The notes beneath the pieces were generated by a model that was not told the DNA's origin, ran no database searches, and saw nothing but the letters and a program-made list of their open reading frames with translations. This document shows, one piece after another, positions 1-64,000 of a stretch of 64,000 bases of DNA. The stretch covers positions 3,505,320 through 3,569,319 of the forward strand of contig CAJINV010000004.1 in the NCBI GenBank assembly GCA_905178155.1. The letters run 5' to 3'. Position 1 is the stretch's first letter. Each line of letters opens with the position of its first letter. Position numbers and translations under genes: made by a program. Source of the stretch: Amoebophrya sp. A120. Its lineage: Eukaryota; Protista; Dinoflagellata.

Positions 1-105
1 GAAAGTGGACAGCTTTTGGCACTCATGCAACACAGATTTTTGTATGCTTCAGATTTACCATGACAAGTTACCATCTTCCAGACCCAGACACTTTTGCATT
101 TGATA

Positions 106-3060
106 TCCTCATCCGTGCAGCACTGTTCCCGCCCGCTGTCCGGATCCTCCAATCCTGGCGCGAGGATGAAACCGCGGCCGGCGCTATTTTATCGCAAGAA
201 AAAACTGTTTCACTGTAAACTTGTAATGCAGAAACTGCAGCTGAGAAGTGTTTGTCTTGCTACACATGCAAGACACTAGATTTTTAACTGTGTTTTCCTT
301 TAAAAGTCTCGCATGCCAAGTTTTCTTTGTCATGTGTAACAAACTTGTGATGCAAAACTTGCAAAATCCTTACAGTGAAACACTACTTTTTTCGTACGAT
401 ATACTGGGTCGTTTTTTCGCTCGCTTAGACGAACACAACGCCTCCTCGTCATCATCATCGCCATCCTGAAGTAGAGAGCAGCGCCAGCGGCCCGATCTTC
501 TACTACTCGGCCTCTTTCCAGCACCACGACCAAGCTCGCGACGAACAGAAATAGAGTTCTTCGATCCCACTAGACTGGCCTCCGCGACCTGTGAGGCCGC
601 TGCTCTACTTGCGGAGGTAGACGCTCGTCCTTTGTTGATCTTCAGATTTTTGAAGGCAGTAGCAGTACCACTGTGGAGGTCCAGCCCCGGAGCAGCAGGG
701 ACACGACCCCGGGAAGAAGAAGAAGAGGCAGAAGCACGACTCCCCCGCCCGGTCACCATCTTGAACTCTCCGCGGCTCCTTCTGGAAAAGCTATCCTCTC
801 GCGAGGCGCCGCCGCCCCCGCCCCCGCAATTCGAGACCGGCGTCCCGTCACTGTCTGCGCCGCCGCTGGTATCAAAATGAAAAGCCCCCCCCCCGCCGCA
901 CAATCAAGTGGAAGCCTGTGCAGGAGCAGCGCGACCTGTGTACACAGATGAGGTTTATTGTCCTGCCGAGAGGGACCAGTGCGCGAAGTGGAGGTCCTAA
1001 GCGTAGTACGCAGAGATGTTTTTGTGCTAGCTTAGCATAGCAGAGGCTGCGGCCTGCCCCAGCATTAGAAGTACAAATCGCCTGCAAAATACAATCATGC
1101 AGCGGGCTCTCTGGATTTGCCCGCCTGCAAAAAACTTCGTGGCAGTTCAGTATCACGAAGCTTTCGGAGCGTAAATAGTACTTTAACTTTTTCATCACAA
1201 TGGGGACGAGCAAGGGGGGGTCCACATATTTTCCCCTCAATAACTGGCGAGGAAACCGCCCGGCGGGTTGCCGCCTATCCTGAGTAAAAACGTACCCACA
1301 CCAGAGTTGTAATGCAGATTTGCAAAGACAGGAAGACTTGTAACGCGCATCCCCATGAGAGCCATTTCCAGTCGTGTTTTGGAATTTGTGATGCCGTGAA
1401 CAGGATGAGCAGATGAATCTGTGATGCGGCTGCACTTGCTAACCTGCACTACACTGCATAGCGCACCTTGTCATGCGTGACTCACAAAACTCCTAGGTTT
1501 GTGTTGCAAAATCTCCATCCTGACTTTGGTGTGGGTACGTTTTTACTCAGGATACCGCCGAGCATGTGTTCGCGCCGGTAGGACCCGTCGCTCGCGAAAT
1601 CGTCCGTCGGATCGTTGCCCAGGCCCAAGTGCCGCGCACTGTCCGAGGAATATTCCCCCTCGGAATTATCGTAGCTGTTTTCGCTGTGCAGCTCTGGACG
1701 AACTGCATTTTTCATTCGTCCCAGGCTGCTCTTGTTTCCCATTTGTAGTCCCGATTGCAATTCATCGCCACAGCGAAGATCTCGTTGTAGGGACGATGAC
1801 ACGTTATTTGCTGTTGTTCCTATAGTCCCTCGTCCTAGTGAACAACTACTACCATGGCGCCCTTGATGCTCGCAGTTCTCTGCGCCAGGGCTGGGTCTCA
1901 TGGTCTCTGAAGCCCCTGCTCGTGCTGGCTCGGGTACAGCTCCCCCTTTGCTGGCCGCCTTCCGTATCACACAGAAAAAAGCAGGCATTTGTAATGCAAA
2001 AACAAATACACAAAAAAATCTGCAGCGCATATCCTAAACAGCATGCTATGGGGCCACCCATGACAAGTTTTTCTGTGTATTTCGTTTTGCATTACAAATA
2101 TGACCTGCCTGCTTTTTTCTCTGGGATATTCCGCTCCAGTTTGCCCTGCAGGTCCGACTCATCCGAGTAATTGGCCTGCGCGTGGAAATGTGCAGTGCAA
2201 ATATGTCTCCTGGGTTTGGAATAAAACAAAGCGGAAACCTGTCACGCTGCAAGGTGTAAAGTCTATTCTAAAAATATCAATTCGTATTGCTACGTGCAGA
2301 GGACCACATTCTTTATGCGCGATAAGCATCTTCAAGAAGCCCTCACAAAACCTGTGATCATGCGAAGGCACACGTCACAGATGACGATGTGGCGCATGCA
2401 AAATCTGGGTGGCAAACTACTTACGTGGCACTCTTTCTTCCAGACGACCCAGTGACTACACATTTGCAAATGGTAGGAATGGGTCCAGCATGACGGGAAC
2501 GCCATCTTCACCATTCTCCTCCTCGGGCAGCAGTACCCCCGCACCGGATATCGCGACAAAAAACTGTTTTTCTGTCCCTAAACTTGTATTGATGCAGAAA
2601 ACGTACTATCGCAGACGCGTTTGTCACATGCTACCCTGGCAAGACAATCGACTTTTAGGCGTGTCTCCCCCGTTTGCGAAGCTCGCACGGGATGAACTCT
2701 TGTTATTTCTAAAATGTAAGTAGAGCTGCAAACTTGTATGTGATGCAAAACTTGCAAAATCTTCCTTCCAGTAAACCACTTTTTTCGTGCGATACCAGCA
2801 GGAGCCACTGGTCTACTACAACTTGAGGGGCCCGGGCCAAGCAGAACCACGTCATGGCTAAAATTGTTTAAAACACGGTTTTTTCCATCGCCAATAGAAG
2901 AAGTTGCTGCACTACTTCCGGCGCCGCTCGAAGACGCTTCTTGTGGGGAAACTGCGACCACGACTGTTCCCTTGCCTGTCGCCGTATCGCCGCCGGTCGT
3001 GCGCTCCGGCCGACTGCGAGTGCCAGAGGAAGAGGCCGCGGAAGCGTGCATAGTGTTCAT
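106..3060 (-). CDS. Hypothetical low-complexity (S/G/A-rich) protein, multi-exon, continues past the left edge
   Basis: ORF pieces 2578-3096, 1482-2030 and 370-903 join in one frame (MNTMHASAASS...APAG/AGVLLPEEENGEDGVPVMLDPF/HAQANYSDESDLQGKLER/KAASKGG...MLGG/NPPGGFLAS/GGADSD...KKRPS/SAGRGFILAPG). The join requires removing elements 2549-2794, 2189-2475, 1965-2128, 1276-1554, 870-1242 and 190-401, each with 5 nt. Confidence 0.7.
1276..1554. mobile_element. Introner family B (TIR TATCCTGAGTAAAAACGTCCCCACCCC), representative copy, TSD CCGCC
   Basis: Other copies: 9252-9585, 11398-11674, 12722-13003, 13009-13289, 13365-13656, 14393-14674, 14786-15067, 15796-16074 (TSD TACAA), 24195-24475, 25918-26197 (TSD CCAGC), 40097-40375 (TSD CAGCT), 55476-55794. 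Confidence 0.95.
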
Positions 3061-3755: not shown

Positions 3756-6700
3756 TTAGAAACCGCCCGGAGGTTCTTGTGAAAGCCACAGCATGTCCGT
3801 TGTGAAGTCGCCACAATTCTTGTCCGTATCAAAGTAATTATCAAATGTAAAAATGTCTGGGTCTGGAAACTTGTGATGCAAAAAGTGGATGATAGCCGGA
3901 CTGCAATACGCAGCTATGCATCACAAACTTTTTGGCTGCCATGTCTTACGTATTCCGCATGGCAAGCTGCGTTTTTGCATGACAGGTAAGAGGGTCTTTT
4001 CGTGCCTATGCAACACAGATTCGCGAATCATGCCAGACAAGCATGACAAACATGAATTCTTCCAGACCCAGACATTTTTGCATTTCATAGTAATGCCCGC
4101 ATTGCGATTGATTCGCCCGCCACGACAAGTGCCGAAACGTATCAACTGCAAAAATGTCTGGGTCTGGAAGGATGTAACCTGTGATGCGCATTTCAGAACA
4201 CACGAAAATCTCTCATGCATAGGTAGCAAAAGCTACTCACTTTCTGTCACCAAAATGGGGGATTTGTCATGCGGGTTCGGCATTGCGAAAGCTTCTCGAG
4301 ACCTGTGATGCTAGAGCTTCCATGCCAGACCTTCTGTGTCATGCAGAAACAGCATGACTCTTCCAGACCCAGACACTTTTACAGTTGCTAAAACGACACT
4401 CTAAGCAAAACGTCGAGGGGTGTCAGCGGCGGGTTCCATGACGCACCTTGCCCATGCCGGGCTACCTTCAGAAGAACGGGCCAGAAGGGTAGCGCTTGCA
4501 CAGTGAGCATGGCAAGAATTTCGGCCGAAAACACGAGCCGCGGAAGAATCAGGCTCGCCGATTGCGGAACCAAACGAACGTCTTCGAGATAGGCCGAAGC
4601 GTGCGGACGGTCTTCGGCTGAACGGTCCTCAGCGTGTCGATATTGCAATTTGCACGCAATGCTTAGGGCAAGGAATAGTAGCGAAAAGGCCCACCCGAGA
4701 AAGATCCCTATCACTCGGCCCAAGTAATAGCCACGATAGGCCTGCGCCCAGGCACTCCGATGAAACTCGCTTTTGCATCGGACCGAGGCTTATCAAATGT
4801 AAAAATGTCTGGGTCTGGAAGATTGTCATGCACGGTTTGCATCACGTGTGAGGTCTGTGATGCATGCCCCAGCATCACAGATTCTGTGAGATCTTTACCA
4901 TGCCTTTTCCGCATGAGAAACTGCCTCTCGGCCTTCTCAAAAGTGAACAGCTTTATTGGTAATCATTCGTTCGTTCGTATGGATCGGCTCTGCCGACCGG
5001 GTGACCCATCGCCTTGCATATAAATGACCGACATAGGCGATCCCCGTTACGGGACATACATATGGCCGTACGGAAGGGCCCTAAGCGCTACATACATAGT
5101 TCATCCTAGCGCCTACCACTTCGGTCGGGACTGAGTCAGCCTGGTCCTGGGGGTTCACAGCGCACTAGCCCTCTGCTAGCATAAACAGACTGGGTTCTAC
5201 AAACTGATCTAACTTCTCATAACAGTGAGGCCATCAATCATGCAACACAGATTTTTGTATGATTCAGATTTAGCATGACAAGTTGTACTCTTCCAGACCC
5301 AGACATTTTTGCATTTGATAAGACTCGCTGATCGGAAACATTCACGAAAAAAAGGTCCGTCGGCTCGTCCAACGGATCCGAGGACACCCCAAACAGTACG
5401 CCGGAAATGTCGAGAGGCTCGTGGAACAACTGCCGCGTTTCAAAAATTAACCGCAGCAAGACTGCGGCCGCAACAGTTTGATGCAGCGCCTGCGACCATA
5501 TCCGAGTATCGTCCTCGTGGATCGTCGTTACACGATTTCGGGTGGCGCTGTTTCCTGAACCTGCTGCTTTTGTTCCTGCCGTCGTCGTCGGAGCTGCGTT
5601 CGGGGCCTTCGCCCTGAAAGTGTTCTGCGGCACCGCAGCCGTGATGATCATGATGACAGGCGGAAGGATCAGCCAAACGACACGAAGTGCCAGATCGATA
5701 GATCGCTCGGTGTTTATGCTGTCCAGGTCATTATCCGCTACGGTTGTAAAGCCCGAACAGGTGCGATCGTACAAGATCAGTGTGTAGTGCGAGAGCAGTG
5801 CACAAATTTCGGCTATCACCAGACCTGTGGTGAAAATCTTGCCCTCCGTGCTGTCCCCTCGCTGACATACACTTGACAAAGTTCCTCTCCTGGCGAAATC
5901 CCAGGGAAGCAGCCAGTACTTTTCCGGCTTCGCCGGCGGTGGATTCGGGCGGTCGGCCGAAAGAGTGTCTGCTTGGTCACCACCTGCCACGACGGTTGCC
6001 CCCTGCTGTGGTTCCGGAGTGACATGATCCCCGCCGCCCTCCGGCTCTACTACCTCCTCCTGGCTGTATTCCCTGGGAAAAAAGACCAAGCGAACCGGCA
6101 GCGCGACGACAATGAGCGAAGCCGCGAACCCGGAAAGGAGGTACACCACAGCGCGAACGTAATCCACCCACCACACAGCAAACCTCTGCGCCAAAAGCAG
6201 TCCACTAGCCTCCTCCACGACCGCCCCGGCGTGGCGAATGTCTGTGGTCGCGTTCACAAGGTCGGTCACGTTGTTGGTGCAGGCGGTGGCGTTCGTCTCG
6301 AGCATTGCAATCTTCTGCTGCATCTCCGCCCGGAGCGTTGAAATCTTCTGCTGTGTCTCCGCCTCGCGCATTGCCATCTCCTGCTGCATCTGGAAAATTT
6401 GCTGCTCCATCGGAAGTTGTCGCAAGTCCTCCTTCTGCCCTCCCATGGCAGTGGCATCTTCCGCGGGCCTGCTTCTCTTTTTTGCTGCGGCATATCCTCC
6501 AATCTGAAGCCACTCCTGCTGCTTGTGGTCCACAAATTCTCTACCCAGATCTTCGATGTCGTTTTCGCCGGTGGGGGAGATAGAGGGAGTTCTCGTCTGT
6601 TGGCGTTCCTGTCGCTCCTCGTTCGTCCCGACCCGCGTAGCCGACAACCCTCCAAACGCATACTGTACTGCAGCATTGCTCTGCAGAAACTCTTCCGCTG

Positions 6701-7043: not shown

Positions 7044-7883
7044 GAGATGTGCGGGCAGGGAGCGCAGCCGCGGTCACTTCAAGAGTTGTAGTGGCAAAAA
7101 ATATGACATCAATTCTGCCACAAATGCCCGCGATGACGACAGAGGCTTGCTGTTCGTGGCTCTACATATAGAAAAGGAATAAAGCACGACAAAAGTACAC
7201 TGATATCCTCGACTGTGAAAGTAGTTCGCGACCGAGCGACTTGTCATCAAAGTTACATCTGTACAACTTGAGAATACGGTATGGAGATCAAGATCCAGAC
7301 CGCCTCAAAAATGGCAAATGATAATGAAGCAGTAGATCGCGAGAGGAAATAAAACTCGCTTCTGGACGCCTAGATCTTCATGTTCGACCTCGCAAGTTCG
7401 GGATGAAAGCATCCTTCAAAAAAAAGAAAAGCTCTGGATGAAAGAAAAAGTCCCACATCGTCATGGCACAACAGTATGTGCTATCAGAATCAAAATCTTG
7501 TATATCTGTTCCTCGAACATCAAGTGGTCTATAATTGGTATTTGTGACGAGTAACACGCAGCTGTATCATATGAGCGCAGACCGGAGGCATGGTGTTGTT
7601 CATGCACGAAACTCCAGTTCAAACACAGTCACAGATCAATAAAAAAAGCACCCCGATATGAAAAGATCAGGAAATGCGTCATCTCAAGATGCGGAAAATT
7701 GCTCGCAAGTTGTGGTCGTTCTCACTTTTGAAACAAATCCGTGTCGCGAAATCGTTGCTTTTTCATCTTCCTCTCGACTTCTCAACAACAATAGTCACTG
7801 ACCCGCCAGACGTCGAGCCAGCCATAAAATTGATGCTGATTTTTCTTTGTGCTCCGAAAGGACATTGCTTGGTTTTTGCCTCT

Positions 7884-10247
7884 ATCAAACCACCTGCATG
7901 AAGCTTCGCCCGCCGGCATTCCCGCCCCCGGCAGCTCCCTGTCCCGCAACGAACTATTACAATGCAAAATGCCCCCACCCCCGAACTTGGGAGCATTTGT
8001 ATTGCAAACCTTTCCAAATGAAACACTCGCCCTCTTGCATCTATCAGCATCACAGGTTTTCAATCGTGAATAGCAAAAATTTGCATTGCAAAAGACCCCA
8101 GCAAGAGCGGCACTTGCCATGCAAGCTATGCGATACACGCCTACACTCTGCATCAGAAAGATTCATACTCCTTTCCTGCATGACAAAAAGTTTTCATTTG
8201 GAAACTTCGCATCACAAATTTTTGCAATTTAGGGATGGGGGGCACTTTTCACTGTAATACGAACTGCGCATGCTTCCGAGGTTTTCGCCGCAAAATTGCC
8301 GCGTCCTCCATTATATCAAGTGCAAAAATGTCTGGGTCTGGAAATTTGTGATGCTAAAATGTGCAGGATGAAAACACTTCCTCACGCAGGAAAGCATGAC
8401 AAGTCTGCGCAACGCTTTATCATACGAACTCCGCATGAGAAACTGCGTTTTTGTATCATGACGTGAGAGGCTGCCACTTTTGTTGGTCATGCAATACAGA
8501 TTTCACAGGAATGCAAGACCAGCATTACAAGTTCCAACCATCCGGACCCAGACATTTTTGCATTTGATACCACATCTCCACCTGGTAGGGCGGGTCGCGG
8601 TACTCCCTCCCGGTTCCCTTATGGAAGCGTCAGGATTGAAATCGTCAAAGTTGAAATAATTTCTCATGCAGGAATTGCAAGGCATGCAGTGCCTCTCTTG
8701 CAGGGATGGCAAGTGAGGCCGCCTGTCAGCCTGTTTGGGGTCTGCGAGAGAGCTGCTAAAGTAGCACGACAAAAGACGCCTTCTGTCTCTAAACAGCATG
8801 ACAAACTGGATTTAGACGGTCCCGAAATTTGTCATGCGCCGCTTGGAAATTGGGCTTCTAACTGGTATCGATTTTATGCATTACAAATGATTTCAACTTT
8901 GTCGATTTCGATCCTGACACTCCCATATCCCTCGAGAGGATCGTATATCGTGCGAAAAAACTGTTTCACTGCAAGGTAAGCACACTTTCGACGCAAGGGT
9001 TTGCATCACAAATATGTTTCTTCAGCATGACAAAGGAGATCCGCCATGCGTACTTTGTATTAAGGTACTACCGACTACACAGCTAGAAACCCAAACCCAA
9101 CAATGTCTCGCATGATGTGTGACACGGAAATAAACACTTCTGCGTAGTTGTTGCACTTTCTGCATCACAAGCTACAGTTTACAGGCAAACAGCTTTTTCT
9201 CGCGGTATCGTACCGTCGCGGTTCAATATTCGAAGACCAGCCCGCGAGTCATATCCTGTGTAAAAATGTCCCCATCCACCTCTATTTGTCACGCAAATCT
9301 GCACGCCCAAAAAAAAAAGTTTCTCACGCGCAGCCACAACATGCGAGGCGGTTTCTCCTAATGCTTGTTTCTGGGTGGAGTTCTTTCTAATGCTACAATC
9401 AGGTGGCTGAGCTCCTCGATTTCTACTCATGCGCCCGCACAACTAGCTAAACACGATTAATAACGCACACAGTGCGAGCCCAGAGAACTTCTCATGCGCA
9501 ACAGCCAACACTTCTTGACTTGTGTACGTGGAATTGCCATCTTGTCTATGAGTAGTTGGGGACGTTATTTTTACTCAGGAGGATAAACGAGTAGGGAATC
9601 GTGGCCAATCGTCGGTCGGCAACGATTTCGACCAACTGCGGAAGTTTCTGCTTCGTATGCATTGCAAATATGTCTGGCTCTGGATTAATTTGCGATGCGA
9701 AGCCTCCCTGCTGACCAAAAAAATCTGTATATGCAAGAGGCGGATTGGCGAGTCTTTTTGGCGTGCTAGAAGGCAGTTCCTCGTCATGCGAGTTTTCATG
9801 AACGAATCTGCAAAATCGAGGCTTGCAAATTTTCGTTGTCATGCGACGTTCATCAGTCTGTACACCCGGCCCCCGCTCGCATGCAGGGCTCTGCAGCACA
9901 ATTTCGGACCATCTTTCCAGACCCAGATCGATATTTGCATTTGATACTTTACCCGGCCAGACCATCGTACGGAAAACCTTCACCCATGTCATATCAAATG
10001 TAAAAATGTCTGGGTCTGGAAGAATGCAAGTCTGTCATGCTTGTCTGGCATGACTGGAGAATCTGTGTTGCATAGGCACGCAAGAGTCCTCTTACCTGTC
10101 ATGCAAAAACGCAGTTTGCCATGCGGAATACGTAAGACATGGCAGCCGAATAATTTCTCATGCATAGCTGCGTATTGCAGTGCGTCTATCATGCACTTTT
10201 AGCATTACAAGTTTCCAGACCCAGACATTTTTGCAATCCATATGTCA
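7884..10247 (-). CDS. Probable further 3' exons of the calpain-like gene (or a separate small gene), split by 7 introners
   Basis: Short GC-rich segments between elements join as ...RRYDPLEGTGREYRDPPYQVE.MEDAAILRRKPRKHAQFVAGQGAAGGGNAGGRSFMQVV*. The frame across the 9656-9946 junction is unresolved. Confidence 0.5.
8946..9207. mobile_element. Introner family C (TIR TATCGYGCGAAAAAACTGTTT), TSD TCGTA
   Basis: Inverted ends with a 5-bp repeat; other copies at 190-401 and 2549-2794. Confidence 0.85.
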
Positions 10248-10469
10248 CTGCAAATGCTTAGTTGGTAAGTACTACCAGAGTTTCTACCGTAGTAGTGCCT
10301 ACCAAGCGCCGTAAGCGAAGCGCATTGAATGCAACCAAAAACAACTAAATATTGCGGCGTGCGGAACTACTTCCTTAGCCCATGCCCGACGTCCGCAGCA
10401 TTTCGTCTTGTTTCTGGATCTTGTTCTATGTCAATAAAACTTTGCTAGCTGCTTGCAGTTATTTTCAGT

Positions 10470-13400
10470 ACGATAGAGAAACTTCTTCGATCAACAGCGG
10501 CGACCCGATGGAGTAAAACCTTTGTGATTTCAGAAGTTTTTTGGCTACAGCTTCACCTCGTTCGTGTTCGTTGGGAGTTCCACGCGCCATTCGTATCAGG
10601 TTTAGCAAGGCCCTAGTACTCGCAAGAAATTTAGTAGACATGGCCAAAAAGTGAAACGAATATCACACAGCTCCTGTTACGGCGGAGGCTTGCTGCAGCT
10701 GCGGTAACAACGAAACAACTTTTTTTTTACGGTGTGCTGAGGTAGAAAATTCTGATAGACATCGTCCTCGAAACATTCGCTAAATGACAACTATACCTTG
10801 CCACGAGTCGAAAGGCGGGCGTGTCGCCGCAGACTGCAGCGGAGAGGTACAAAATGGTTGTGTCGGGCGTGGTATCAAATGTAAAAGTGTCTGGGTCTGG
10901 AAGAGGAGAAGTTTGTCATGCACATTTTCCATGCTCCATGATGTCTGTGACGTATGCCATAGCATCACAGATTTTTTGAGAGCCTATCGATGCACATCCT
11001 GCAAGACAAATGCCCTCTACGCGTAGCCAAATTTGACTCCTCTTGCTGCTCATGCAATACAGATCTTTTTAGCATCCAAATGCAGCATCACAAGTTTGGC
11101 TCATCCAGACCCAGACATTTTTCCATTTGATACGTGGTCTCGTCGGGTTTCACCTTCACCGCTAGCGCCGCGTCCCGGGTGTTATCCTGTGCAAAAGTAT
11201 CGCATTCGTATAAATGCAAGTCAAATCAGGATTACAAATTATTTCTCAAGCTGAGGAAATTTGTAATGCATTTATGCGAGTACGATACTTTAACTTTTGC
11301 AGTTCATAGGTGTGCCCCCAGTTTGACACCGTGACCAGGGACACGTCCACACTGCTTCCGTTGGCGGACGAGGCGGAGTGCAGGTTCAGCCCCATCTTAT
11401 CCTAAGGCAAAACGTCCTCACCCCATAGTTGTCATGCGAATCGGCATGCTTAAAATGTTTCTCATGCGGAGCCCGATGAAAAGCGCTTTCTCGTCGTGTT
11501 TGTAATGCTCGAAGTAGCATAAGACGCTCTATCTGCAATGCTATACGCGCTAGCTTCTGAACAGGACAACACTATGAGCCCAAATCTGTCACGCGCCACA
11601 GCCAAAACTCGTTGATTTGTCTATAGCAGATTTCTCATTTTGACTCGAGTGTGCGGACGTTTTTCCACACAATACATCTCCTCATACAGCTTCAGAAAAA
11701 TCGGGGAGTGGCAGTCCTTATCAAATGCAACTATGTCTGGGTCTGGAAGATTCAAGGAGTTTGTCATGCATCTTCTGGATCACGCAACTGGTCTCTAATG
11801 CACACAAAAGCATTACAGGTTTTGCGCAGGCCTCCTGATGTCTATCCCCCATGAGAAATTCCCTATTTGCGTAGCAAAACATGAGAAGCTTTTGGAGGTG
11901 CTTATGCAATACAAATTTTGCCTATTCCAGAAATCGCATGACAAGTTCCAATTCTTCCAGACCCAGACATTTTTGCATTTGATAGTCCTCGCTGCTCAGG
12001 TAGCCGCCTAGCCGATTTATCAGAATGAAAAATCCCCCCTCCCCATATCCAAAACGAAATTTGTGATGCTGTATTTGAGTACACAAATCGACTTGTAATG
12101 CTAGAAGGCCAAGAGACGCAGCTGTGGCCTCATTTGCAGGCAACTTGTCATGCTGTTTCCCCCTTCCAGCTGCCCCGTGTCATGCTGAAGATGCAAGGCT
12201 TTCCCACGCCAACCAGCACTACAGTCCGCATCTTTTCCCTTCTAGCATGACAAGGCTGATTTGTGGCCACAAATCCGCATCACATATTTCAAGTTTGAGT
12301 ATGGGATGGGGGGATTTTTCATTTTGATACGCTTATCGCTCTGGCCCACCCCGATGAAGATCTCGCACTCCTGCCGGGGCTTAGTGACCTCGATCTTGAA
12401 CACCGGCCAGTTCTCGCTCGTGACGAAGCTCGGGAAACACCAAATCTGTTCTTCCAGCTGCCTGGGCGGCGGGGAGGCCCCGTACGTTCTTGGAACGAGG
12501 GTCGGCGCCTTGCAAAAAATAATTTTACCGGAAAATTAAAATAAAAATTATTGAAAGCAAATGCGAAAAAATAACTTTTACCTTGCTCTCCGCTCTCCGC
12601 ATTAGTTTTAGTACGAAGGTAGAGTAGCGGCCGGACCAGAATTCAAGTGGAACAATAAACGCACTGAGTAAGTACCAGGTCAGAGCCTAACGCCTTCCAA
12701 GCGGGGATCCAGGTGCTCTTCTATCCTGTGTCAAGAAAACGTCCCCGCCAGCCAAGAGTTGTCATGCAAATTACCTGCAAGCCTAATCACTAAAACGTTC
12801 ATCAAGCGCAATCCCACCACGAGTAGCGTTTTCTGATGCTATCTGAGGGCTCTCTGTCGTGCTGGAAAAATCAGGACAAGATCATCGATCAGCGATGCGG
12901 CCTCCGCACCAGCCTGAACGCTGTCCGAAAACTCCTCGATACGATTGTGTTGCGAAATTCATCCTATCTCGACTCTGGGGCGGGGTCGTTTTTCCGCAGG
13001 ATACCTCCTATCCTGTGTAAAAACGTCCCCACCCCAGAGCTCTCATGCAATTCTGCACGCCAAAAAAGTTTCTCACGCGGGGCCCTATGAAAAGCGTTTT
13101 CTAGTCGTGTTTTGGAATTTGTAATGGTAGGACCAGCATGCTACGATAGATCTGTGATGCTGCTGACCTAGCTAAAACAGGATTACACTACGAGGACAAA
13201 CTTGTCATGCCAAACAACCACAGCGGGTTGATTTGTCTAGCAGATTTCCCATCTCGGCTCTGGGGGTGGTGTCGTTTTTCCTTACGATATCTCCAGGTCG
13301 GAGGTGTTTACCAGTCTACATTCGTGAATGGACCTAAACACCTGGTGGAACACCAAAATCTCCATATCATTTGTAAAAACGTCCCCACCTCCCCAGAGTC

Positions 13401-16400
13401 TGTCAAGATGGGGATCTCGCAACACGAGTACAAAAGCTGTAGGAGTCAGCACGCATGACGAGTTTTTGCAGTCCGTACTGTACTAGTGCAGTTTAGCAAT
13501 GACAGCCAGCGCCACAAAGTCATCTACTTATCCTGGTTGCAGCATTACAAATTCCAAAACGCGATGCCTCTGATGCGCGACATGCGCATTACAAATCTTC
13601 CTGCCACTGCAAATCCGCATGACAACTCTGGGGTGGAGACGTTTTTGCTCACAATACTCCATCCACAGGTACCCATCCTTCGCCTGGTATGTGGTATCCT
13701 CTGCAAAAGTCTCGCACTCGTATTGCATTTATGCAATACAAATGCAAATCTCCTTCTTAAGGTTGAGCAGGCAAAAGCGCATTTAGAGCGGGGTAACAAA
13801 ATAAAAAAAGAGGTCCTCGGGGGACCTCTTGTCCCCCCGGCCGGGCGGACAAGAGGTCCCCCCGTTTTGCTGCCGGAGCGTCCGGCACGCGGAGTTCCCC
13901 CCCGTGTCGCCGCGTCGGATATTTCGGGCGAATCGGGGCAGGGACCTCTTGCCCCCCCCGTTGCGCAGAGAAATTGGCTATGTATTTGCTATACAGGACA
14001 AGAGGTCCCCACCGTTCGACCCGAAATGGCCGGCGCGGCGACCCGGGAGGGAGGGAACTCTACGAGCCGGCTGCTCTGGCAACAGAAGGGGGGGACCTCT
14101 TGTCTGTCCGGCCGGAGGGACAAGAGGTCCCCCGAGGACCTCTTTTTTTATTTTGTTACCCCGCTCTTACAAATTTTACTCTTTAATGCTGAGCCAATTC
14201 GTATTGCAATCTATACCAGCGCGATACTTTTGCAATCCGTATCTGGGATGGTCGGGCAACGCGGTGATTTCGTGCAGCACCTCGTTGAAGGGGCAGTTGA
14301 CAAAGAGGCACACGAGAAAATCCGTGGGCTTCGACCGCATCGGGGGTCGGGCGGTGGTTCTTCCGACGACGCCGGCCGCCGCCTGCTTCGTCTATCCTGT
14401 GTAAAAACGTCCCCACCTCCCCAGAGTTGTCATGCAAATGCGCAATGACAGGAACACTTGTAATGCGCATCTCCTTGAGAGGCATTTCCAGTCGTGTTTT
14501 GGAATTTGTAATTCTGTAAACAGGATGAGCAAATGGCTTTGTCCTGCGGCCTTCCTTGCTAACCAGCACTACACTGCAGATGGAAACTTGTCATACAGAA
14601 CTCCCAAAACTTGGAGATTTGTGTTGCAGATTTCCCATCTTGACTATGGTGTGGGGACGTTTTTACGTAGGATATCGACGACGAGATCTTGAGCGTGTCC
14701 ACCACGACATACGCCCACTCTGGGTCCAGCTTGAGACGCAAACTGCCCGCCTTCTCCTGGTCTAGCTTGGCGACAAAGAGGCGCCTATCCTAAGTAAAAA
14801 CGTCCCCGCCCCAGAGTTGTTATGCAAATGCGCAATGTTGACAGGAACATTTGTAATGCGCATCTCCATGAAAGGCATTTCCAATTGTGTTTTGGACTTT
14901 GTCATGCTGTAAACAGGATATGAGGCTGGCTTTCTCATGCTGCTGCCCTTGCTAAACAGCCGTACACTACAGATGGAAACTTGTCATGCAAAACTCCCAA
15001 AACTTGAAGATTTGCGTTGCAGATTTTCCAACTTGACTATGGGGTGGGGACGTTTTTACACAGAATAGCACTGGCGCAAGGAAAACTCCAGGTACGCGAA
15101 CAGGCGGTCGGCGGCCACGTCGTGCACGTAGAAGCGGGACCCGAGACCCCCCGTCAAATCCTCCAGCGCCTCCTCGATGTTCCCGCCCTTGCCCATCGCT
15201 AAGAAGGAGTTGTGGAGTTTCGCGTACGCCTTCTCTATCAAGGAGCTCCACTATGGGAGTGCACGACTCCCCCTGCTGCTCTCCCTCATACTCATGTGTA
15301 TTAATGCAGAATACCAAGTACACTAGAACTAGATCCTGCACTTGGGCACCAGTATCTGCATGCCAAATTTTGAAACCTCAAACAGCACGTACAATTATCC
15401 GTTTGCAGATTTTTTGCCGTGCGGAAGTAGCCACATAGCTGTCGTTGCTTGTGTTGCTGCTCTTGCCATAGTACAAATGAGGTGGACGAGAGGGGAGTTG
15501 TGAACTGTCATATCCAGGCGAACTGGGGAAAGTGCTCGCTGCGGCAGCCGAGTGGGATAAAGCCCGATTCGTGCTGGGGCAGGTAGTCGTCGACGATGAC
15601 GGACACCCAGTTGGCGTGCTTGTAGAGGCGAAACTGGTAAAAGCCCTTCGCGACACACGATAGCAGCCCCTGCTGCCCGTCCTGCATAAAAACGTCGTAC
15701 ACCAGGTGGGGTCGGGTGCTCAGCGCGTTCAAGGCGTCGATGAAGTAGCCGTTGGTAATGTTGCCCTGAAACACCTTCCCGAGATTCAGGTACAATATCC
15801 TAAGTAAAAACGTCCCCACCCCAGAGTTGTAATGCAAATGCGCAATGACAGGAACACTTGTAACGCGCATCCCCATGAGAGGCATTTCCAATCGTGATTT
15901 GGCATTTGTAATGCTGTAAACAGGATGAGAAACTGGCTTTCTTATGCGGCTCTCCTTGCTAAGCACCACTATACTACAGACGGACACTTGTCATGCACAA
16001 CTCCCAAAGCTTGGCGACTTGTGTTGCAGATTTACCAACTTGACTATGGGGTGGGGACGTTTTTGCTAAGGATATACAAGGCCGAGACCTTTTCCCGGTC
16101 CGGCACCTTCGGCGGGGCGATCAGGGCGCCCTTTTGTCAAGTGCAAAAGTGTCTGGATCTGGAAGGGTGTAAACTTGTCATGCAGATTTTCCATGACCCA
16201 TGAGGTCTGGAATGCGGGACTTAGCATGACAGAGTCTGCAAAGTTTCTGCCATGCGTATCCTGCATGAGAAACTCCCTCCCAACTTGCTCGAAAGTGGAC
16301 AGCTTTTGGCACTCATGCAACACAGATTTTTGTATGCTTCAGATTTACCATGACAAGTTACCACCTTCCAGACCCAGACATATTTGCAATGCATACCTTT

Positions 16401-18983
16401 GCCTGGGCCGCGAAGGCCTGGGTAGCGGCCGGAACGCTGGCCTGGTTCGGCCCGCCGAACTGGTCCTGCTGCTGCTGCGTATCCCTTAGAAAAAGACAGG
16501 CAAACCAACTTTGTAATGCGCAAATAAACACACAAAAAGCTCTGCACGGCATATCCTAAACAGCACGCGACGGGCCCCCGCATGACAGACTGCTCTGTTA
16601 GTTTATTTTTGCATTACAAGTATGCCCTGCCTGTCTTTTTCTATGGGATAGTGTAGCTGCGCCGCGTAGAAAGCGGTAAGCGTGTTCATGTTCTGGCCCA
16701 GCGCCGGGAGGACCTCCATCGGCAGGAACGCGCCCTATCAAAAGGAAAAAAAATCGCCGCTCCCCATATCGAAATGGAAATCTGTGATGCAGGATTGGTG
16801 TGCACACATCGGATTTGTCTTGCAGTAGAGGACTGCAGACAGATACAAAGACGGAGCAGGGGCGTTTCGGTGTAGGCGCCTAGCAAGGCAGACACATCCT
16901 CCGTAGGCCATACAGCATCACAAATTGCCCGCAGAGCGCGGCGGGGTTTTTGGATTTGCCTCCTTACGAATACAGAGGCGCTTTGTGGTCTCAAATCAGC
17001 ATCACAAATTTTTCAAAGTATCCCGCTTTGGTATAGGGAGGGGGACTTTTTCCTCACAATACGCCCTCCCCGTTAACCTCGCCGTTCCTATTACAATGAA
17101 AAACGCCCCCACCCCGGAATTTGCAGAAGTTTGTCATGCAAAGTTTCCAAATGAAAGCTTTTTGTCTTGCCTGAAAGGATTGCGAGCCCTTCTGATGCAG
17201 AATCTAGGTGCGCAAGGTGCCTTGCGCATAACAGATCCGGCTGCTGTTGGGCCCCTTCGCAACACAACTTCGAGCTATTCAGCAGGGAAAATTTGTGATG
17301 CTGAGATATGCAAGACGGGAAATGTTTCTATTGGAAAGGTTTGCAATACAAATGCTGCCAAGTGTGGGGTGGGGGCATTTTTCATTGTAATAGTTCCAGC
17401 GGGAAAGCCGCAGCCACCCAGCCGGCCCCTTCGTGATGGCGTCCAGCTCCTCAGCGCTCACGCCGCCCTCCATCACCGACATCAGGTCCTCGGGCTCGCC
17501 CCTATGCATTGCAAATATGTCTGGGTCTGGAAGGTTGCAACTTGTGATGCTGCATTTGGATACTACAAAAATCTGTATTGCGTGAACAGCAAAAGAGGCC
17601 CAGTTTGTTGCTACACGGCGAGAGGGCATTTTTCATGCGGTATAGGCATAAGGAAACCACCCTCACAAAATCTGTGATGCTACGGCATGCATCACAGACG
17701 TCAGGAGTCACGCAAACTGTGCATGACAAACCTTGCATCCTTCCAGACCCAGACATATTTGCATTTGATAGCCGCCCACCCACCACGATACCGAGTGCGC
17801 CGGGAACTATGCAAGCGCACAACCCTTTTCTCGCCCTCGTCCTTTGCACAATTTATAATTAGCCTCGCCTGACGGGTCATGCAGCTTCCACATGATAGAC
17901 CCACGCCCGGACAATTGTACGTGTGGTTTCTTTGAGCCGCATCCGGAACTTGTCATGCAAACGCGGCAAAAAAGTCTACCTCTACGCAGGACTTCGCATT
18001 TTGCATCACAAATGAACGGGACGAAGAGTTGTGCAGTCTCGTAGGAACTCGCCGGGCGACACGAAGGTGCCGTCGTCGCGGTACATCTTCTGGTCGATGT
18101 ATTCAAGAAAAAAACACCATCACAATCTTCACTTTTGCACATTTTTGCAATACAAAGATTTTTGTCATGCGCAAAAATGCATCACAATCAAGATTTATAG
18201 GCGATTTCCCTTTGTGTTTTTGCAATACAAGAAAAATTTGTAATGCAAGACAAATTTCTGACGCAAAGCCTCCTAAATGTGATTGTGATGGTGATTTTTT
18301 CTTGGATACGATGGCGCCAAGCGCCAGCGCCTATGCACTGCAAATATCTCTGGGTCTGGAAGACACGACCTCCGAGTTTGTGGTGCGACGATTCCGAGAC
18401 GAGGACACAAAAATCTGTACTGACTAAGCGGCAAACAAATCAACCTGCGTTTGACCAAGCGAAGACGGTATTTCTCATGCAAGGTAGGCAATGAAGACCC
18501 TTGCTCTCAAAACTTGTGATGCTAGTACCGCCCGCATATTTATCTTCTGGGTCGACGTGCCAAAGAACCTGGATAGGCAAACTTTGCATTCTTCCAGACC
18601 CAGACATATTTCAGCATTTGATAGCGCCCCGGGCTGGTCCATGATGTCCGCGGCACCGGGGTCCAGCGCCGTGTCCGGGGTGAGCAAGGTCTTCATCAAG
18701 TTGCGGCACATATCCCAGAGAAGAAAGCTGGCACCGGGGGTAAATACACAGAAAAATTTGTCATGGGTGGCTCCATAGCATGCTATTTCGGATATGCTTG
18801 CGTATCTATTTTTGCATTACAAGTAAGTATGACCTGCCTGCTTTTTTCTGTGTGATAGTACAGCTCTCCCGCCGACTCCCGCTCGTCGTAAAAGTCATTC
18901 TCGCCCTCGTACCACTTCTGCGCCTCCTCTTCGCCCGCAATGCTGCCGCGGAACCCGCTCGGACGCGGTTCGCGGGAGGACAT
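10470..18983 (-). CDS. Calpain-like protein (CysPc domain plus domain III), catalytic residues degenerate; split by about 22 introners and a few GT-AG introns
   Basis: Spliced motifs: [96 protein letters not shown], then domain III-like [35 protein letters not shown]. Start taken at MSSREPRPS (ATG at 18983). Confidence 0.88.
13786..14166. mobile_element. PIF/Harbinger-type (Tourist-like) MITE nested inside introner 13695-14241
   Basis: A 50-bp perfect TIR (GAGCGGGGTAACAAAATAAAAAAAGAGGTCCTCGGGGGACCTCTTGTCCC), TTA on both sides, and six GGGACCTCTTGYC motifs in alternating orientation. Confidence 0.88.
17089..17392. mobile_element. Introner family E (TIR TATTACAATGAAAAAYGCCCCCACCCC), TSD GTTCC
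   Basis: Other copies: 7955-8259 (TSD CGAAC, opposite orientation), 21293-21570 (TSD CCCGA), 22347-22659, 23187-23488. Confidence 0.92.
18100..18308. mobile_element. Introner family I (TIR TATYCAAGAAAAAAWCACCATCACAATC), TSD CGATG
   Basis: Single copy with a 28-bp inverted repeat and a perfect 5-bp repeat. Removal joins LALGAI/DQKMY in frame. Confidence 0.88.
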
Positions 18984-19976
18984 GATGTGAGTTGTCCTGA
19001 GAGTACTGCACACGAGGTCGTGGCTGTCGACGTTGATCTTCGAGTCGTGAACGTGATCGTGATGTTCACCGGAACATATACACTCGTCCTCCTCCTCCAC
19101 GGGGATTGCTTCCCGCCCTGAACGCCTTCTCAAAAACGCGTCAATACCGCAACACGACCCGGTCGTTCGCGCGAATGAAGACTACATTCTTTGTCCGCTC
19201 GTTCTATGAACAATAGTAGTAAGACCTTCGCAAATAGAGTGGCAAATGCTGGGCATGGTAGTAAACTCCTGTGGCGGGATCATGTGAGGAGAAACTTCCC
19301 GGTGCCAGCAGAGTTCGCATTCATCCTCTGTCCTTGCGACGACCTACTTCTGGATTCATCTTGACCAGCCTGTACAGAACTTCCGGTTCCAGCGGCGAGA
19401 GAGGCGCACATAAGAACGACCAAGTGCGCTATATATAATCCTTTCGCAGCTTTCACGCAAAGGATGGCGGTTAGCTGCTATGGCTTGCACACCCAGATCT
19501 GCTTCGTCTCTCGATACAAGTTAACTTGCTCTACTTCTAGGCCGCACCTTTACAACTGCAGGGGGGCCGCTTCGATCTGCTGCCTCAATTCGAATTAATT
19601 ATACTTTACACTCGCTCGAACCCACTCGCAACATCTACTCTTGTTTACCAAAGCAAAAGAACTGAAACTGATTAAGTACCGTGGATCAGCAGTGTACGGC
19701 ACTCCCTGCACCGAAACCTCCACACAATGATGGGACTGTCTCGCTGAAACGTGTCCACGTAGCAGCTCCAGCTTTTTATGTACTCATCATTTGCGAGCGG
19801 TTTTAAACAGTGCTGCCCTTCGGCCGCCGACTATGATACAATAGTGGCGCCGCAAGTCTTGCACTACAGAAGTGAATCTGGTACTGGACGTCCAATATGA
19901 TAAGAAATTTGGTGGCACTATCATGAGGTACTTTCTTACTTACAGTTGCTGCACGACTGCGCCGCACATTCACAAA

Positions 19977-25265: not shown

Positions 25266-28200
25266 TTACTTTCCCTTCCCCTTGCCCCAGCCTTTCTTCT
25301 TGCCTTTCCCGCCGCCCCCGCCGCCGCCCTTGCTGTTTGGAACGCGATTCCGCTTACCGCCTTTCTTGCCGACGCCGCCCTGGCCGTTGGGCAGGTTGAC
25401 CTCCGCGGGACCCTCGGGGGGGTTGAACGGCACGGGGATCTTCACCGTGGTCTGCGGGAAGGGCATTAGGTCGAAACCCAGGTGCTCGAACGTCTTGCGC
25501 AGCCGGTGCTTGTCCTGGATCTCCAGGTCGTTTATGGAAGCGTCAGGACCGAAATCGTCAAAGTTGAAATGATTTGTCATGCATAAAATGCGACTCAGAA
25601 ACTGCCTGTCTTGCCGAGTAGGTACGTGGGGCAGATTGTAAGCCCGTTGAGGGGTAAGCACTGAGCTGCTAAAGTAGCACGACAAGAGGCGTCTTCCTTA
25701 CCCAAACAGCGCTACAAACTGGATTTCAGCTCTACCCAAATTTGTCATGCGCCACTTGAAAACTAGATGCCGAGTGGTATCCGTTTTATGCATAGCAAAT
25801 TATTGCAACTCTGACGATTTCGATCCTGACACTCCCATATCGTTTTCCAGCGACATGTACTGAAACCCGGCGGCCGGGTTGTGCTGCATACAGAACAGGG
25901 AGAGAAACAAAACCAGCTATCCTATGTAAAAACGTCCCCTACCCATAGTCAAGATGGAGAATCGGCTAGACAAGTCCACAAGTTTTGGTTGTTTCGCATG
26001 ACAAATTTGAACTCGTAGCGTTGTGCTGTTTGAGCTAGTTCAGCAGCATCACAGATCTAGTATATCATGCTGATTGAAGCATGACAAATTCCAAAACACA
26101 AATAGAAAATGCTTCTCATCGGGCTCTGCATGATAGACATTTTCAGCATGCAGACTTGCATTACAACTATGGGGTGGGGACGTTTTTAAATACGATACCA
26201 GCTTCTGTTTGTTCAGCGCGCACTGCTCCACGTTCTGGCTCTCCTCGAACTCGTCCACGAACGTGTCCAGGCTAATCTTGTCGTAGAAGGTGTCGATCAG
26301 GTGACTTTTCAGCGCGTCGTCAATGTGGAACCGGTGGGCGTCGATCAGGTCGTCGATCTTCTTCTGCAGCTTCAACGCCTTCTGCTTCGCGAGCGCGGCC
26401 TTCTTCTCCTTCATTTTCCCCGCCGAGTCGCCCTCGTCGCTGCTGTTCATCCCGGCCTCCGAATTATCTTCCTCGTCGCTCACGATGTTGTTGTCGTCAT
26501 TTAGCTATCCTGTGCAAAAGTATCGCACTCGTAGTAATTGCAGTCATGCATTACAAATCTGGCTCCCAAGGCAATAAATCAGCATGACAAATTCCATTTG
26601 TCATGCTGAGCGAATTTGTATTGCAATTACTACTAGTACGATACTTTTGCAATTCATATTAGCTTGAGCATCTTGGTTTTCCCATTCAGCTCCCCTTCCA
26701 GCTTTTCCTGCAGTTCCTCATTCAGCCGTTTCTCCTTTAGCAGTTTCTGCTTTCTCGCATATGCCGTAGAACTGGTGTAGGCCTCGTCAAAGATTTTGAA
26801 TTTCATCTTGCACTCCCGTTTCGATCCCGCGAACGAGAACTGCTTGTCCGTGTACATGGCGACGAGGATCCGGATCAGCGCGCCCATGCAGGCCACATTC
26901 GCGGCGTCCTCCTCGGTTTTTACCTGGTACTTTTCGTGGTGCCGCCGCGCGGAGATCATCTCGTAGGCTGCGTTATGCATGGCAAATATGTCTGGGTCTG
27001 GAAGGATGCGAACTTGTGATGCGCATTTCACAACACACATAAATCTCTCATGCAGAGGCAGCAAGGGAGGCGCGTCTCCTGTCACCAAAATGGGGGATTT
27101 GTCATGCGAATTAGGCAATGCGAAAGATTCTCGAAATCTGTGATGCTAGGGCTTCCATGACAGACCTTCTGTGTCATGCAAAAACAGCATGACAAAAATC
27201 TGCACTGTTCCAGACCCAGACATATTTGCATTTGATACGCGTGCGACCCGCAGGCGTCCCGCAGCTTGCTGTCGTCGAGTCGCTGGGTGAGGCACCGGAC
27301 CAGCGTGTTCTTCTTCTCCAGCTTATCAAAAGGAAAAATCCCCCCACCCCATATCAAAACGAAGTTTCAGATGCTGGATTTGCGTGCACAAATTAGATTT
27401 GTCTTGCTGGCGAGGACTACAGGCCCATATGAAGCCTGAGTAGGCAGGTTTTGGCCTAGGCGCTTAGCATGGCAGACGTCTACGCTGTAGCTAAAACAGC
27501 ATGACAAACCGCCTGTAGAATGCGGCGGAGCTTGTGGAGTTGCCTTCATGCAACACAGAGACGATTTGTGACCTCAAATCAGCAACACAAATTTTCGGCA
27601 ATATACCTTTTCAATATGGGGAGGGGGGATTTTTCCTGTTAATACAGCTTGATGCGCGCACGGAGCAGCTTCAGCGGGAAGACCTGCGGGAATGGGTGGC
27701 AGTAGTGTTTAAGTTTTGGTAAAATCAATGCATTTATTTTATCAACATCGATTTGGCTCTGGAAATACCAAATATGCGCATAAGAACCTGTGACGCAGGT
27801 ACTTTTTATGCCGGAGCTTCGCTACTAGCGTACCATACCTCTACAAGCGCCGTGGACGTCTGCCCGACAGCATCGGCAGCGACGCCTAACGACCCTCGCC
27901 GTGTCAGAACATACGAGGAGGGTGGTAAAAATAAAGCGGTGTGATGCTAATGCTGGAGGTGGGGACAAGCACCAGGAACAGTGATTTTGCAGCATGAGGA
28001 TCAAAAAAATTATAGTTGCCCATAATTTGATGTTCTACTACTACGACCAGAAAGAGCTTTTTGCTGTGGGAGAAGCGGTCCTGCTTGAGACGCAGTTTCA
28101 TATACCTTTTCCAGTCCCTTTTTGAAGACGTCGTGGCGCTTCTCGCAGCTGTTGTCCCACTCGGGCAGGTATGCATTGCAAAAGTATTGTACTTAGTAAA

Positions 28201-48700: not shown

Positions 48701-49456
48701 CGTACTAATTGCAATTACGCATTACAAATTTCCTCTCCAAGGTAAAATAGCATGACAAATTTTTCATGCTGAGAGAACTTGTATATACCAGTACGATGCT
48801 TTTGCAATTCATATAAAAACCCCGGGGTCTCGCCGGTACAGGAGGCGTAGCGCGGTCACGTTTTTGCTCTTCGCCGCCCAGTGGGCGCAGGTTTCCTGCA
48901 GCCCCGCGGTCCCGTGCCGCACCTGCTCGACCGTGGAATTTTGTAACATATCAACAGCAAAAATGTCTGGGTCTGGAAACTTGTAATGCTGCGTTGGGAG
49001 TAGTGAATGCCCTGTAATGCACAGGCAAGCATGAAAAATATTCGCGCTTCTTTGTGTTGCGTTTTTCGCATGACAGGCTGCGTTTTTGCATGACAGACAA
49101 AAGGGTCTCTTCTTGGACACGCATCGGAAACTTTTCGGCCATGCCAGACACGCATGACAAATCTCAAAATCTTCCAGACCCATACATTTTTGCATTTGAT
49201 ACAACAGCAGGCTGAGCAACTCGAAATAGCTGACGCACTTCTGCCGCCGGACCTCCTGGTTCAGGGCCAGAAAGCGGGGACCGCTGTACCAGCACGCCCA
49301 GTGGAAGGCCGTGGAGCCGTCCGGCAACGGCGTTACTGGGTAGTTCCCGCGCCGAAAAAGGTCGCAGGCCACCTCCGGCTGGTCCCATGCCGCCGCCTCC
49401 GTCACGGTTTCTGGTACGCGTAGCGCGGCCCCATTATGATCCACCCCGCGCTGCAT
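42722..49456 (-). CDS. Ankyrin-repeat DHHC palmitoyltransferase (Akr1/ZDHHC17-like)
   Basis: Ankyrin repeats (DGSTAFHWA, ETCAHWAA, DNLGRTALQYAC, DHEGLTALHWAA, GDTPMQIA), TM segments and RFDHHCPWVDNAIGLGNQRSF near 44260-44315. The C-terminal exons join in frame to a TGA at 42722. Confidence 0.9.
42849..43064. mobile_element. Introner family H (TIR TATGACAGTGCACAACTYCCCCTCCCC), TSD AACAG
   Basis: Near-perfect 27-bp inverted repeat. Related copies at 15252-15512, 17808-18043 (TSD GGAAC) and a decayed one near 20075-20360. Confidence 0.88.
44702..44935. repeat. 18-bp minisatellite (AGCGCACTACCTAACAAA, about 6 near-perfect plus 2 degenerate units) bracketed by a 15-bp inverted repeat
   Basis: Units run from 44761 to 44868. 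GCACGACTTAAGCAG is at 44702-44716 and its reverse complement at 44921-44935. Confidence 0.9.
46855..47005. mobile_element. Introner family K (ends TATCCACAGTAAAT / TATGCAATACAAATTTCCCGTAC), TSD GCTCG
   Basis: A second, expanded copy in the opposite orientation lies at 45554-46367 (TSD GAAGT/GAAAT). Confidence 0.85.
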
Positions 49457-50673: not shown

Positions 50674-50699
50674 CGTTCTGAACGGCTCCACGGGTGGAC

Positions 50700-54090: not shown

Positions 54091-54095
54091 TCCGC

Positions 54096-63897: not shown

Positions 63898-64000
63898 TAT
63901 TGCAAGGAAAAATCCCCCCTCCCCATATTAAAAACGTATCTGAAAATTTGTGATGCAGATCTGCGGCCACAAATCCTGTCTGTCTTGCTAGAAGGCAAAT

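What the first reader, a model, noticed from the sequence alone, without database searches (positions are those of the whole stretch)
1276..1554. One internal motif (YTGTVATGC / GCATBACAR) is arrayed inside otherwise unrelated families
Seen: TTGTAATGC, TTGTGATGC, TTGTCATGC and their complements occur several times in the copies I inspected across families A-K, and seem rare in exons. In this copy they fall near 1306, 1337, 1385, 1418, 1467 and 1498 (gaps about 31, 48, 33, 49, 31). The first copy often sits about 30 nt from an end (220 in 190-401, 3870 in 3839-4089, 2089-2098 in 1965-2128). Inference: a shared protein-binding code for a transposase, an intron-defining factor or a chromatin protein. 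It may be the real signal marking sequence for removal.
Basis: partly seen in the sequence, partly recalled or inferred. Interest (0 to 1): 0.78.

Follow-up and report, generated by a model that had tools for sequence, protein, structure and literature searches.

The report
Helically spaced code inside Amoebophrya introners
The known jumping introns of the plankton parasite Amoebophrya share a short DNA word, set in pairs about three helix turns apart and at fixed distances from their ends, which is likely the docking site for the still unknown protein that moves them rather than the signal that splices them out.

Summary
The motif is real: 179 exact hits against 4.5 expected, 175 of them inside 82 short elements. 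These are the published introners of Amoebophrya sp. A120 (TAT..ATA ends, 5-bp target duplication; one exon is 99% identical to a named A120 protein). RNA-like contigs skip them; DNA-like contigs keep them. The unit is a pair of same-direction sites 31-33 bp apart (about three helix turns), found in 11 of 12 family groups. The first site is centred 37-38 or 45-52 bp from an end. Both rules repeat in 426 elements from a second assembly. There is no transcript-strand bias (77 vs 78), canonical introns lack the motif, and 6 of 37 RNA-skipped elements have no exact copy. It is therefore unlikely to be the removal signal. Best reading (0.6): a subterminal double-stranded DNA binding code for one shared mobilising protein, which I did not find. 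A DNA-bound factor that also guides splicing is not excluded, since motif positions change at about 0.45 of the spacer rate even in the most diverged copies. The scan noted the motif before on two other pieces of this genome. The spacing rule is in neither note as shown, nor in the papers read.

The parts
1276..1554 (.). Family-B introner/MITE, 279 bp, TAT..ATA ends; inverted arms 1276-1330 / 1500-1554, 82% complementary
   Evidence: folds as an end-closing hairpin, z -7.7. Skipping of this copy in RNA was not shown (joint table was cut)
1271..1275 (+). left copy of 5-bp target duplication CCGCC
1555..1559 (+). right copy of 5-bp target duplication
1307..1346 (+). module 1: site 1307-1315 (exact) + site 1338-1346 (1 mismatch), 31 bp apart; first centre 37 bp from left end
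1386..1427 (+). module 2: sites 1386-1394 and 1419-1427 (both exact), 33 bp apart
1468..1507 (+). module 3: site 1468-1476 (exact) + 1499-1507 (VTTGC variant), 31 bp apart; outer centre 51 bp from right end, pointing outward
7635..19414 (-). calpain-like gene with 29 top-level elements; removing element + one duplication copy gives a 577-codon frame (12646-19181) across 17 of them, and spliced lengths equal to RNA-like contigs (524 and 1288 nt)
   Evidence: Pfam Peptidase_C2 on one exon
42725..49456 (-). ankyrin-DHHC gene; the named A120 protein P0001 aligns with breaks or gaps at the elements
3839..4089 (.). family-A example (28 members in window): first sites centred 38 and 46 bp from the two ends
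25918..26197 (.). family-B copy in reverse orientation, skipped in an RNA-like contig
28170..28338 (.). decayed element with background-level motif content (1 internal site with 1 mismatch), still skipped in an RNA-like contig
9252..9585 (.). decayed family-B copy without exact motif or pair, skipped in RNA-like contigs
45554..46367 (.). longest element of the window (814 bp) with a 151-bp short derivative at 46855-47005; no transposase remnant recognised

Best explanation
The motif is likely a subterminal binding site on double-stranded DNA for one shared mobilising protein (a transposase or its end-binding partner) that copies all TAT..ATA introner families of Amoebophrya A120. Shown: the elements are MITE-like introns with TAT-N7-AAAA ends and 5-bp duplications. 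The site is a near-palindrome, (A)YYTGT-V-W-TGC-W. It comes as same-direction pairs 31-33 bp apart. It is nearly absent from 17-35 bp of an end, and the first site is centred at 37-38, 45-49 or 49-52 bp. Spacers turn over while their length is kept. Inferred: two protomers sit on one helix face three turns apart and help pair the ends; selection in active lineages keeps the sites; removal from RNA relies mainly on the end hairpin (TAT..ATA, A-run). The protein was not found.
For: Enrichment 179 vs 4.5; 8.0 vs 0.09 per kb. Family-weighted same-direction pairs at 31-33 bp: 10.4 vs null 1.3 +- 0.5, 0 of 2000 (also as best window of any spacing), in 11 of 12 family groups; opposite-direction pairs not enriched there; sites depleted at 17-35 bp from ends, 0.9 vs 9.3. 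Replicated in 426 elements of a second assembly: 8.7 vs 0.98, 0 of 500; 0 vs 11.5 at 17-35 bp. In A2 the pair is 31 bp in 100 of 116 copies; B module 2 is 33 bp in 19 of 19. No strand bias on RNA: 77 vs 78, 388 vs 439, p 0.08; asymmetric families insert both ways (B 8:4 and 7:8). Of 37 RNA-skipped elements 6 lack an exact copy and 14 lack a pair. Three canonical introns and two nested non-TAT repeats have no exact copy. In families B and E distant copies lose motif bases as fast as other conserved columns (0.20 vs 0.21; 0.18 vs 0.20). Precedent: transposase-site spacing follows the helical pitch in a Tn7-like system (PMC10201428, passages).
Against: No transposase found: 0 of 150 ORFs scanned (149 of 388 listed ORFs plus one) and 0 of 4 frames in the 814-bp element. 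Farhat et al. report no putative transposase in A120 (PMC7789003 section 16). Private substitutions at motif bases stay at 0.41-0.50 of the spacer rate in all four divergence bins, including the oldest; pure neutral decay after insertion would push this towards 1, although sparse sampling and alignment anchoring can also give it. In A, A2, F, G and H distant copies keep the motif far better than other columns. No general 10.5-bp periodicity beyond the single 31-33 peak. Of the 20 singleton families in the second set, 18 have no pair.
Confidence: 0.6

Rival explanations
1. A host DNA-binding factor (possibly a tamed transposase domain) binds the paired sites on chromatin and marks the stretch as an intron during transcription, which would work on either strand and could stand in for the missing U1.
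For: Strand symmetry and helical spacing fit a DNA binder. Motif constraint persists in the most diverged copies (ratio 0.41-0.47). Only 2 of 426 elements lack any site at 1 mismatch. U1 was not detected in A120 (PMC7789003 section 10).
Against: 14 of 37 RNA-skipped elements have no pair, and 28170-28338 is at background level. Farhat's A25 elements have other ends (TTA), and many non-canonical introns are singletons. In Euglena the tested code sits at the borders (PMC12501133 abstract).
Confidence: 0.15
2. The sites bind a host architectural protein (a bending or nucleosome/DVNP-positioning factor) that the elements recruit for end pairing or target choice, while the catalytic enzyme reads only TAT-N7-AAAA.
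For: The sites lie outside the terminal 30 bp in most families and occur in either direction at different distances. A host factor, IHF, has this role in a Tn7-like system (passages).
Against: Such a host site should also occur in promoters or intergenic DNA, but there are only 4 exact hits in 42 kb outside elements.
Confidence: 0.12
3. The motif is an RNA signal: a branch point (GCAUBAC read as a UnAy site) or a splicing enhancer.
For: GCAUBACA has U at -2, A, C like a branch site (recalled consensus). An inward copy lies about 30-45 nt from the 3' end in 30 of 68 window elements.
Against: The 5' end carries the mirror copy as often (24 of 68; 139 vs 132 in the second set). Reversed family-B copies (13365, 25918) have no exact GCAUBACAR on the transcript strand and are still skipped. 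Canonical introns lack it. The -1 base is almost never A, the base U2 normally pairs with (recalled). A fixed 31-33 nt spacing is not typical of single-stranded RNA.
Confidence: 0.06
4. The motif is a functionless relic of an ancestral 32-bp tandem repeat from which all families descend.
For: Weak shared preferences flank both sites (S at +11/+12), and all families share end features.
Against: The two units of one element are no more alike than units of different families (0.31 vs 0.29; shuffled 0.26). Spacers are unalignable between families while the motif is kept. Motif bases change at half the spacer rate.
Confidence: 0.04

Closest known systems
Introner elements (IEs) of Amoebophrya sp. 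A120 (Farhat et al. 2021, PMC7789003)
   Same: TAT + 7 variable bases + at least 3 A at the ends, 3-5 nt direct repeats, mean non-canonical intron 240 nt, non-GT-AG borders, removed from RNA; a window exon is 99% identical to a named A120 protein.
   Different: The sections read (10, 11, 12, 16, passages, supplement part 2 and a supplement word search; figures not visible) describe only ends and direct repeats. They mention no internal motif, pair spacing or end-distance rule.
Subterminal transposase-binding sites of Tn7-like/CAST ends (PMC10201428) and of MITEs of TIR transposons (recalled)
   Same: Several short repeated sites inside the ends, asymmetric between ends, spacing tied to the helical pitch.
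   Different: Termini are TAT..ATA, not TG..CA; the host is a eukaryote; the elements are introns; no enzyme is known. This is an analogy only.
IS3EU/GingerRoot and Ginger2 DDE transposons (PMC10045372, passages)
   Same: IS3EU has TA..TA termini; Ginger2 makes 4-5 bp duplications. Gozashti 2025 (PMC12130899) reports A120 TIR introners with LTR-element-like ORFs.
   Different: IS3EU and GingerRoot usually make 6-bp duplications; here 333 of 436 are 5 bp and 0 of 436 are 6 bp. Ginger termini TGT (recalled) are absent.
Nonconventional introns of Euglena (PMC12501133, abstract and introduction)
   Same: Non-GT-AG, end-pairing introns removed by unknown machinery.
   Different: The Euglena code is a CAG/CTG-type pair a few bases from the borders; the motif here lies 30-90 bp inside and is repeated.

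Membership tests
Amoebophrya A120 introner elements | ends TAT + 7 nt + AAA | tested here: met
   end logo of 436 elements and family-weighted logo; calling favoured such ends
Amoebophrya A120 introner elements | 3-5 nt direct repeat at borders | tested here: met
   5 bp exact in 333 of 436; CCGCC at 1276-1554
Amoebophrya A120 introner elements | removed from transcripts as non-canonical introns | tested here: met
   RNA-like contigs skip 37 elements, spliced lengths match; RNA status of those runs is the tool's guess; copy 1276-1554 itself not shown
Amoebophrya A120 introner elements | host is Amoebophrya A120 | tested here: met
   99% identity to a named A120 protein, 73% to an A25 protein
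MITE with subterminal transposase sites | short, non-coding, TIR, TSD, high copy | tested here: met
   summed depth over some elements is 10^2-10^4 times that of flanks (the tool warns this is no copy number)
MITE with subterminal transposase sites | cognate transposase binds the repeats | not testable with these tools
   needs pull-down or EMSA
MITE with subterminal transposase sites | autonomous partner with the same ends exists | tested here: inconclusive
   none in 64 kb + 712 kb; whole genome not held
IS3EU/GingerRoot | TA..TA termini | tested here: met
IS3EU/GingerRoot | usually 6-bp TSD | tested here: not met
   0 of 436 (feature)
IS3EU/GingerRoot | IS3-like DDE transposase | tested here: inconclusive
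   no transposase ORF found
Spliceosomal branch point | one strand, near the 3' end only, also in canonical introns | tested here: not met
DNA-eliminated sequences (ciliate-IES-like) | absent from a DNA form of the locus | tested here: inconclusive
   DNA-like contigs run unbroken through 22000-23781 and 27614-30800; one sample, possibly the assembly's own source; other life stages not seen
Known Rfam RNA family | match at gathering score | tested here: not met
   0 matches in the window

The most novel reading that the evidence does not exclude
Amoebophrya A120 defines tens of thousands of introns on DNA. A protein bound to helically phased motif pairs, perhaps the same protein that mobilises the elements, marks them for co-transcriptional removal on either strand, replacing U1-based recognition.
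Probability: 0.12. Interest if true: 0.9.

Novelty: new variant of a known kind. Interest (0 to 1): 0.52.

Why it matters
Farhat et al. split the A120 introners into 1,954 families, found no transposase in A120, and left both mobilisation and splicing unexplained. One shared site with a strict geometry implies that a single protein serves families whose interiors cannot be aligned. It also supplies a bait (two sites 31-33 bp apart) to fish out that protein, and a search image for the autonomous element. It narrows the splicing question too: the ends, not this motif, are the first suspects.

Tried and rejected
Whole-genome analysis: no genome held. Viral contigs: 0 matches to a family-A end pattern. 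Raw RNA runs X9 and X10 gave only 5 and 22 laid reads, uninformative. The joint table was filled by repeat artefacts, so the piece table was used instead. EM motif search drifted to a symmetric, over-inclusive matrix; a fixed pattern with 0-1 mismatch was used. General 10.5-bp periodicity of end distances: not found. Idea that the element end is itself a motif copy: a right half-site at positions 8-12 is common in only 4 of 11 families, so not general. Autonomous element: the one long perfect candidate (L022 505-1608) holds a GC-rich repeat, and its 238-aa frame has no Pfam hit; 239 of 388 listed ORFs were not scanned. Decay tests cannot separate selection in active lineages from selection after insertion; end conservation in them is inflated because ends were used for calling. 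Introner consensus strings were not found in 14 supplementary files of PMC12130899. U2 alignments and logos in the supplement of PMC7789003 are pictures and could not be read; they may bear on the branch-point rival and on whether the motif was seen. Print searches for the motif or its role; none of the listings or texts read describes it. The library lacks most subscription papers.

Full report
What the window is. The window is eukaryotic DNA of about 50% GC, dense in 126-345 bp inserts. Motif-blind calling on end pairing and flanking repeats gave 80 candidates. I dropped 7 as spurious by eye and added 9 decayed ones by hand: 82 elements, 21.8 kb. They start TAT, carry an A-run at positions 11-15 and sit between 5-bp direct repeats. 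This is the description of A120 introners in Farhat et al. 2021 (PMC7789003; abstract, sections 10, 11, 12, 16, passages and supplement part 2 read). A DHHC exon is 99% identical to a protein named Amoebophrya sp. A120, and that protein aligns with breaks or gaps at the elements.

They are introns. Removing each element plus one repeat copy opens a 577-codon calpain-like frame across 17 elements. RNA-like contigs skip the elements, and predicted and observed spliced lengths agree (524 = 524; 1288 = 1288; 73 vs 72). The RNA label of these runs is the tool's guess. DNA-like contigs run unbroken through elements; they may be the assembly's own source. The copy 1276-1554 itself was not shown to be skipped, because the joint table was cut at 15 of 38 rows.

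The observation. There are 179 exact hits against 4.49 expected, and 175 lie in elements. At one mismatch the density is 20.8 per kb inside and 2.4 per kb outside. In 1276-1554 four of the six named sites are exact and two have one mismatch. The wider consensus is a near-palindrome, (A)YYTGT-V-W-TGC-W. With motifs and ends masked, family representatives do not align (2 of 78 pairs above shuffles, one of them within a family). Unmasked single-linkage clustering did merge six groups, so common ancestry is not excluded.

Weighting each of 12 family groups equally, same-direction sites peak at 31-33 bp centre to centre: 10.4 against 1.3 +- 0.5, 0 of 2000 randomisations, also when the best 3-bp window of any spacing is taken. 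The pair occurs in 11 of 12 groups. Opposite-direction pairs show no such peak. Sites are nearly absent 17-35 bp from an end. First sites are centred at 37-38 or 45-49 bp when pointing inward, and at 37-38, 46 or 49-52 bp when pointing outward. None overlaps the window and the elements are at most 95% alike. Among 436 elements called there, 333 have a 5-bp and 0 a 6-bp duplication. In the 426 of at most 400 bp the spacing repeats: 8.7 against 0.98, 0 of 500; only 2 lack any site at one mismatch; 18 of 20 singleton families have no pair. Pair length is tight (31 bp in 100 of 116 A2 copies; 33 bp in 19 of 19 for B module 2), although the 48-49 bp gaps between B modules are also fairly stable. 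The two units of a pair are no more alike than units from different families, so this is not a local tandem duplication. Thirty-one to 33 bp is three turns of B-DNA (established knowledge). I found no wider 10.5-bp periodicity.

Is it the removal signal? On the transcript the two orientations are equally common: 77 vs 78 in the window and 388 vs 439 in 303 elements of the second set, using a strand classifier that was right in 64 of 68 checks. Asymmetric families insert both ways. Of 37 RNA-skipped elements, 6 have no exact copy (one of them holds a nested element that does) and 14 have no pair; 28170-28338 is at background level. Three canonical introns and two nested non-TAT repeats have no exact copy. 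A strict requirement for removal is therefore refuted, and a branch point is unlikely. Against my reading: private substitutions at motif bases run at 0.41-0.50 of the spacer rate in all four divergence bins (468 copies), and distant copies keep the motif well in five families, though not in B and E. With about 1% of the genome's copies sampled, these tests cannot separate selection in active lineages from selection after insertion.

Mechanism. The most likely reading (0.6) is that one mobilising protein binds the paired sites on double-stranded DNA, on one helix face, at set distances from the TAT..ATA ends it cuts, and leaves a 5-bp duplication. Shown: the anatomy, spacing, strand symmetry and dispensability for skipping. 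Inferred: protein binding, its identity, and the role of the end hairpin in splicing. The functional analogue is the helical-pitch spacing of TnsB sites (PMC10201428, passages); this is not a membership claim. IS3EU matches in termini but not in duplication length (PMC10045372, passages). Gozashti et al. 2025 class the A120 families I could see mostly as TIR DNA elements of unknown superfamily, and describe one with LTR-element-like ORFs (PMC12130899, passages and part 15 of supplement 8). I found no transposase.

Novelty. The elements are known. The motif is not in the sections, passages or listings seen, but figure content was not visible. Two unreviewed notes of this scan report the same motif on other pieces of the genome, and one also proposes an enzyme binding site; I had recorded that reading before seeing them. 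A second look-up for spacing or helical turns found nothing. Verdict: real, a new variant of a known kind, interest 0.52.

Noticed in passing
window 13785-14167: Palindromic repeat with 119-nt arms and different ends (no TAT, no exact motif) nested inside the introner 13695-14241; by its TTA flank it resembles a Harbinger-type MITE (recalled label).
   Followed up: partly
window 4966-5236: Another repeat nested in element 4791-5320, without the motif; a similar composite occurs in L002 5696-6148.
   Followed up: partly
window 8928-8945, 9947-9962, 18309-18331: Micro-exons of about 11-18 nt between neighbouring elements are kept in RNA-like contigs.
   Followed up: partly
window 12722-13003 and 13009-13289: Two family-B elements separated by only 5 nt, skipped together.
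   Followed up: partly
window 9963-10475: Old element with no motif site of its own, holding the young element 9992-10242; the whole is skipped.
   Followed up: partly
window 1-98 vs 16135-16395: The cut element at the window start matches element 16135 at 95 of 98 bases, a sign of recent copying.
   Followed up: yes
window 45554-46367 and 46855-47005: An 814-bp element and its 151-bp internal-deletion derivative lie in opposite orientation in the same gene.
   Followed up: partly
L022 505-1608: 1104-bp TAT..ATA element with a perfect 5-bp duplication, a motif pair at one end only and a GC-rich repetitive interior.
   Followed up: yes
window 44700-44860: Tandem array of a unit of about 17-18 nt in an intron of the DHHC gene.
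   Followed up: no
window 49500-53500: Element-free stretch with two GC-rich islands (about 51100-51650 and 52840-53450) and an AT-rich repeat (about 52000-52500), at the switch from minus-strand to plus-strand genes; possibly a divergent promoter region.
   Followed up: no
window 54039-60640 and 62693-63898: Plus-strand protein-kinase and ubiquitin-hydrolase genes (Pfam); long low-complexity exons carry almost no elements.
   Followed up: partly
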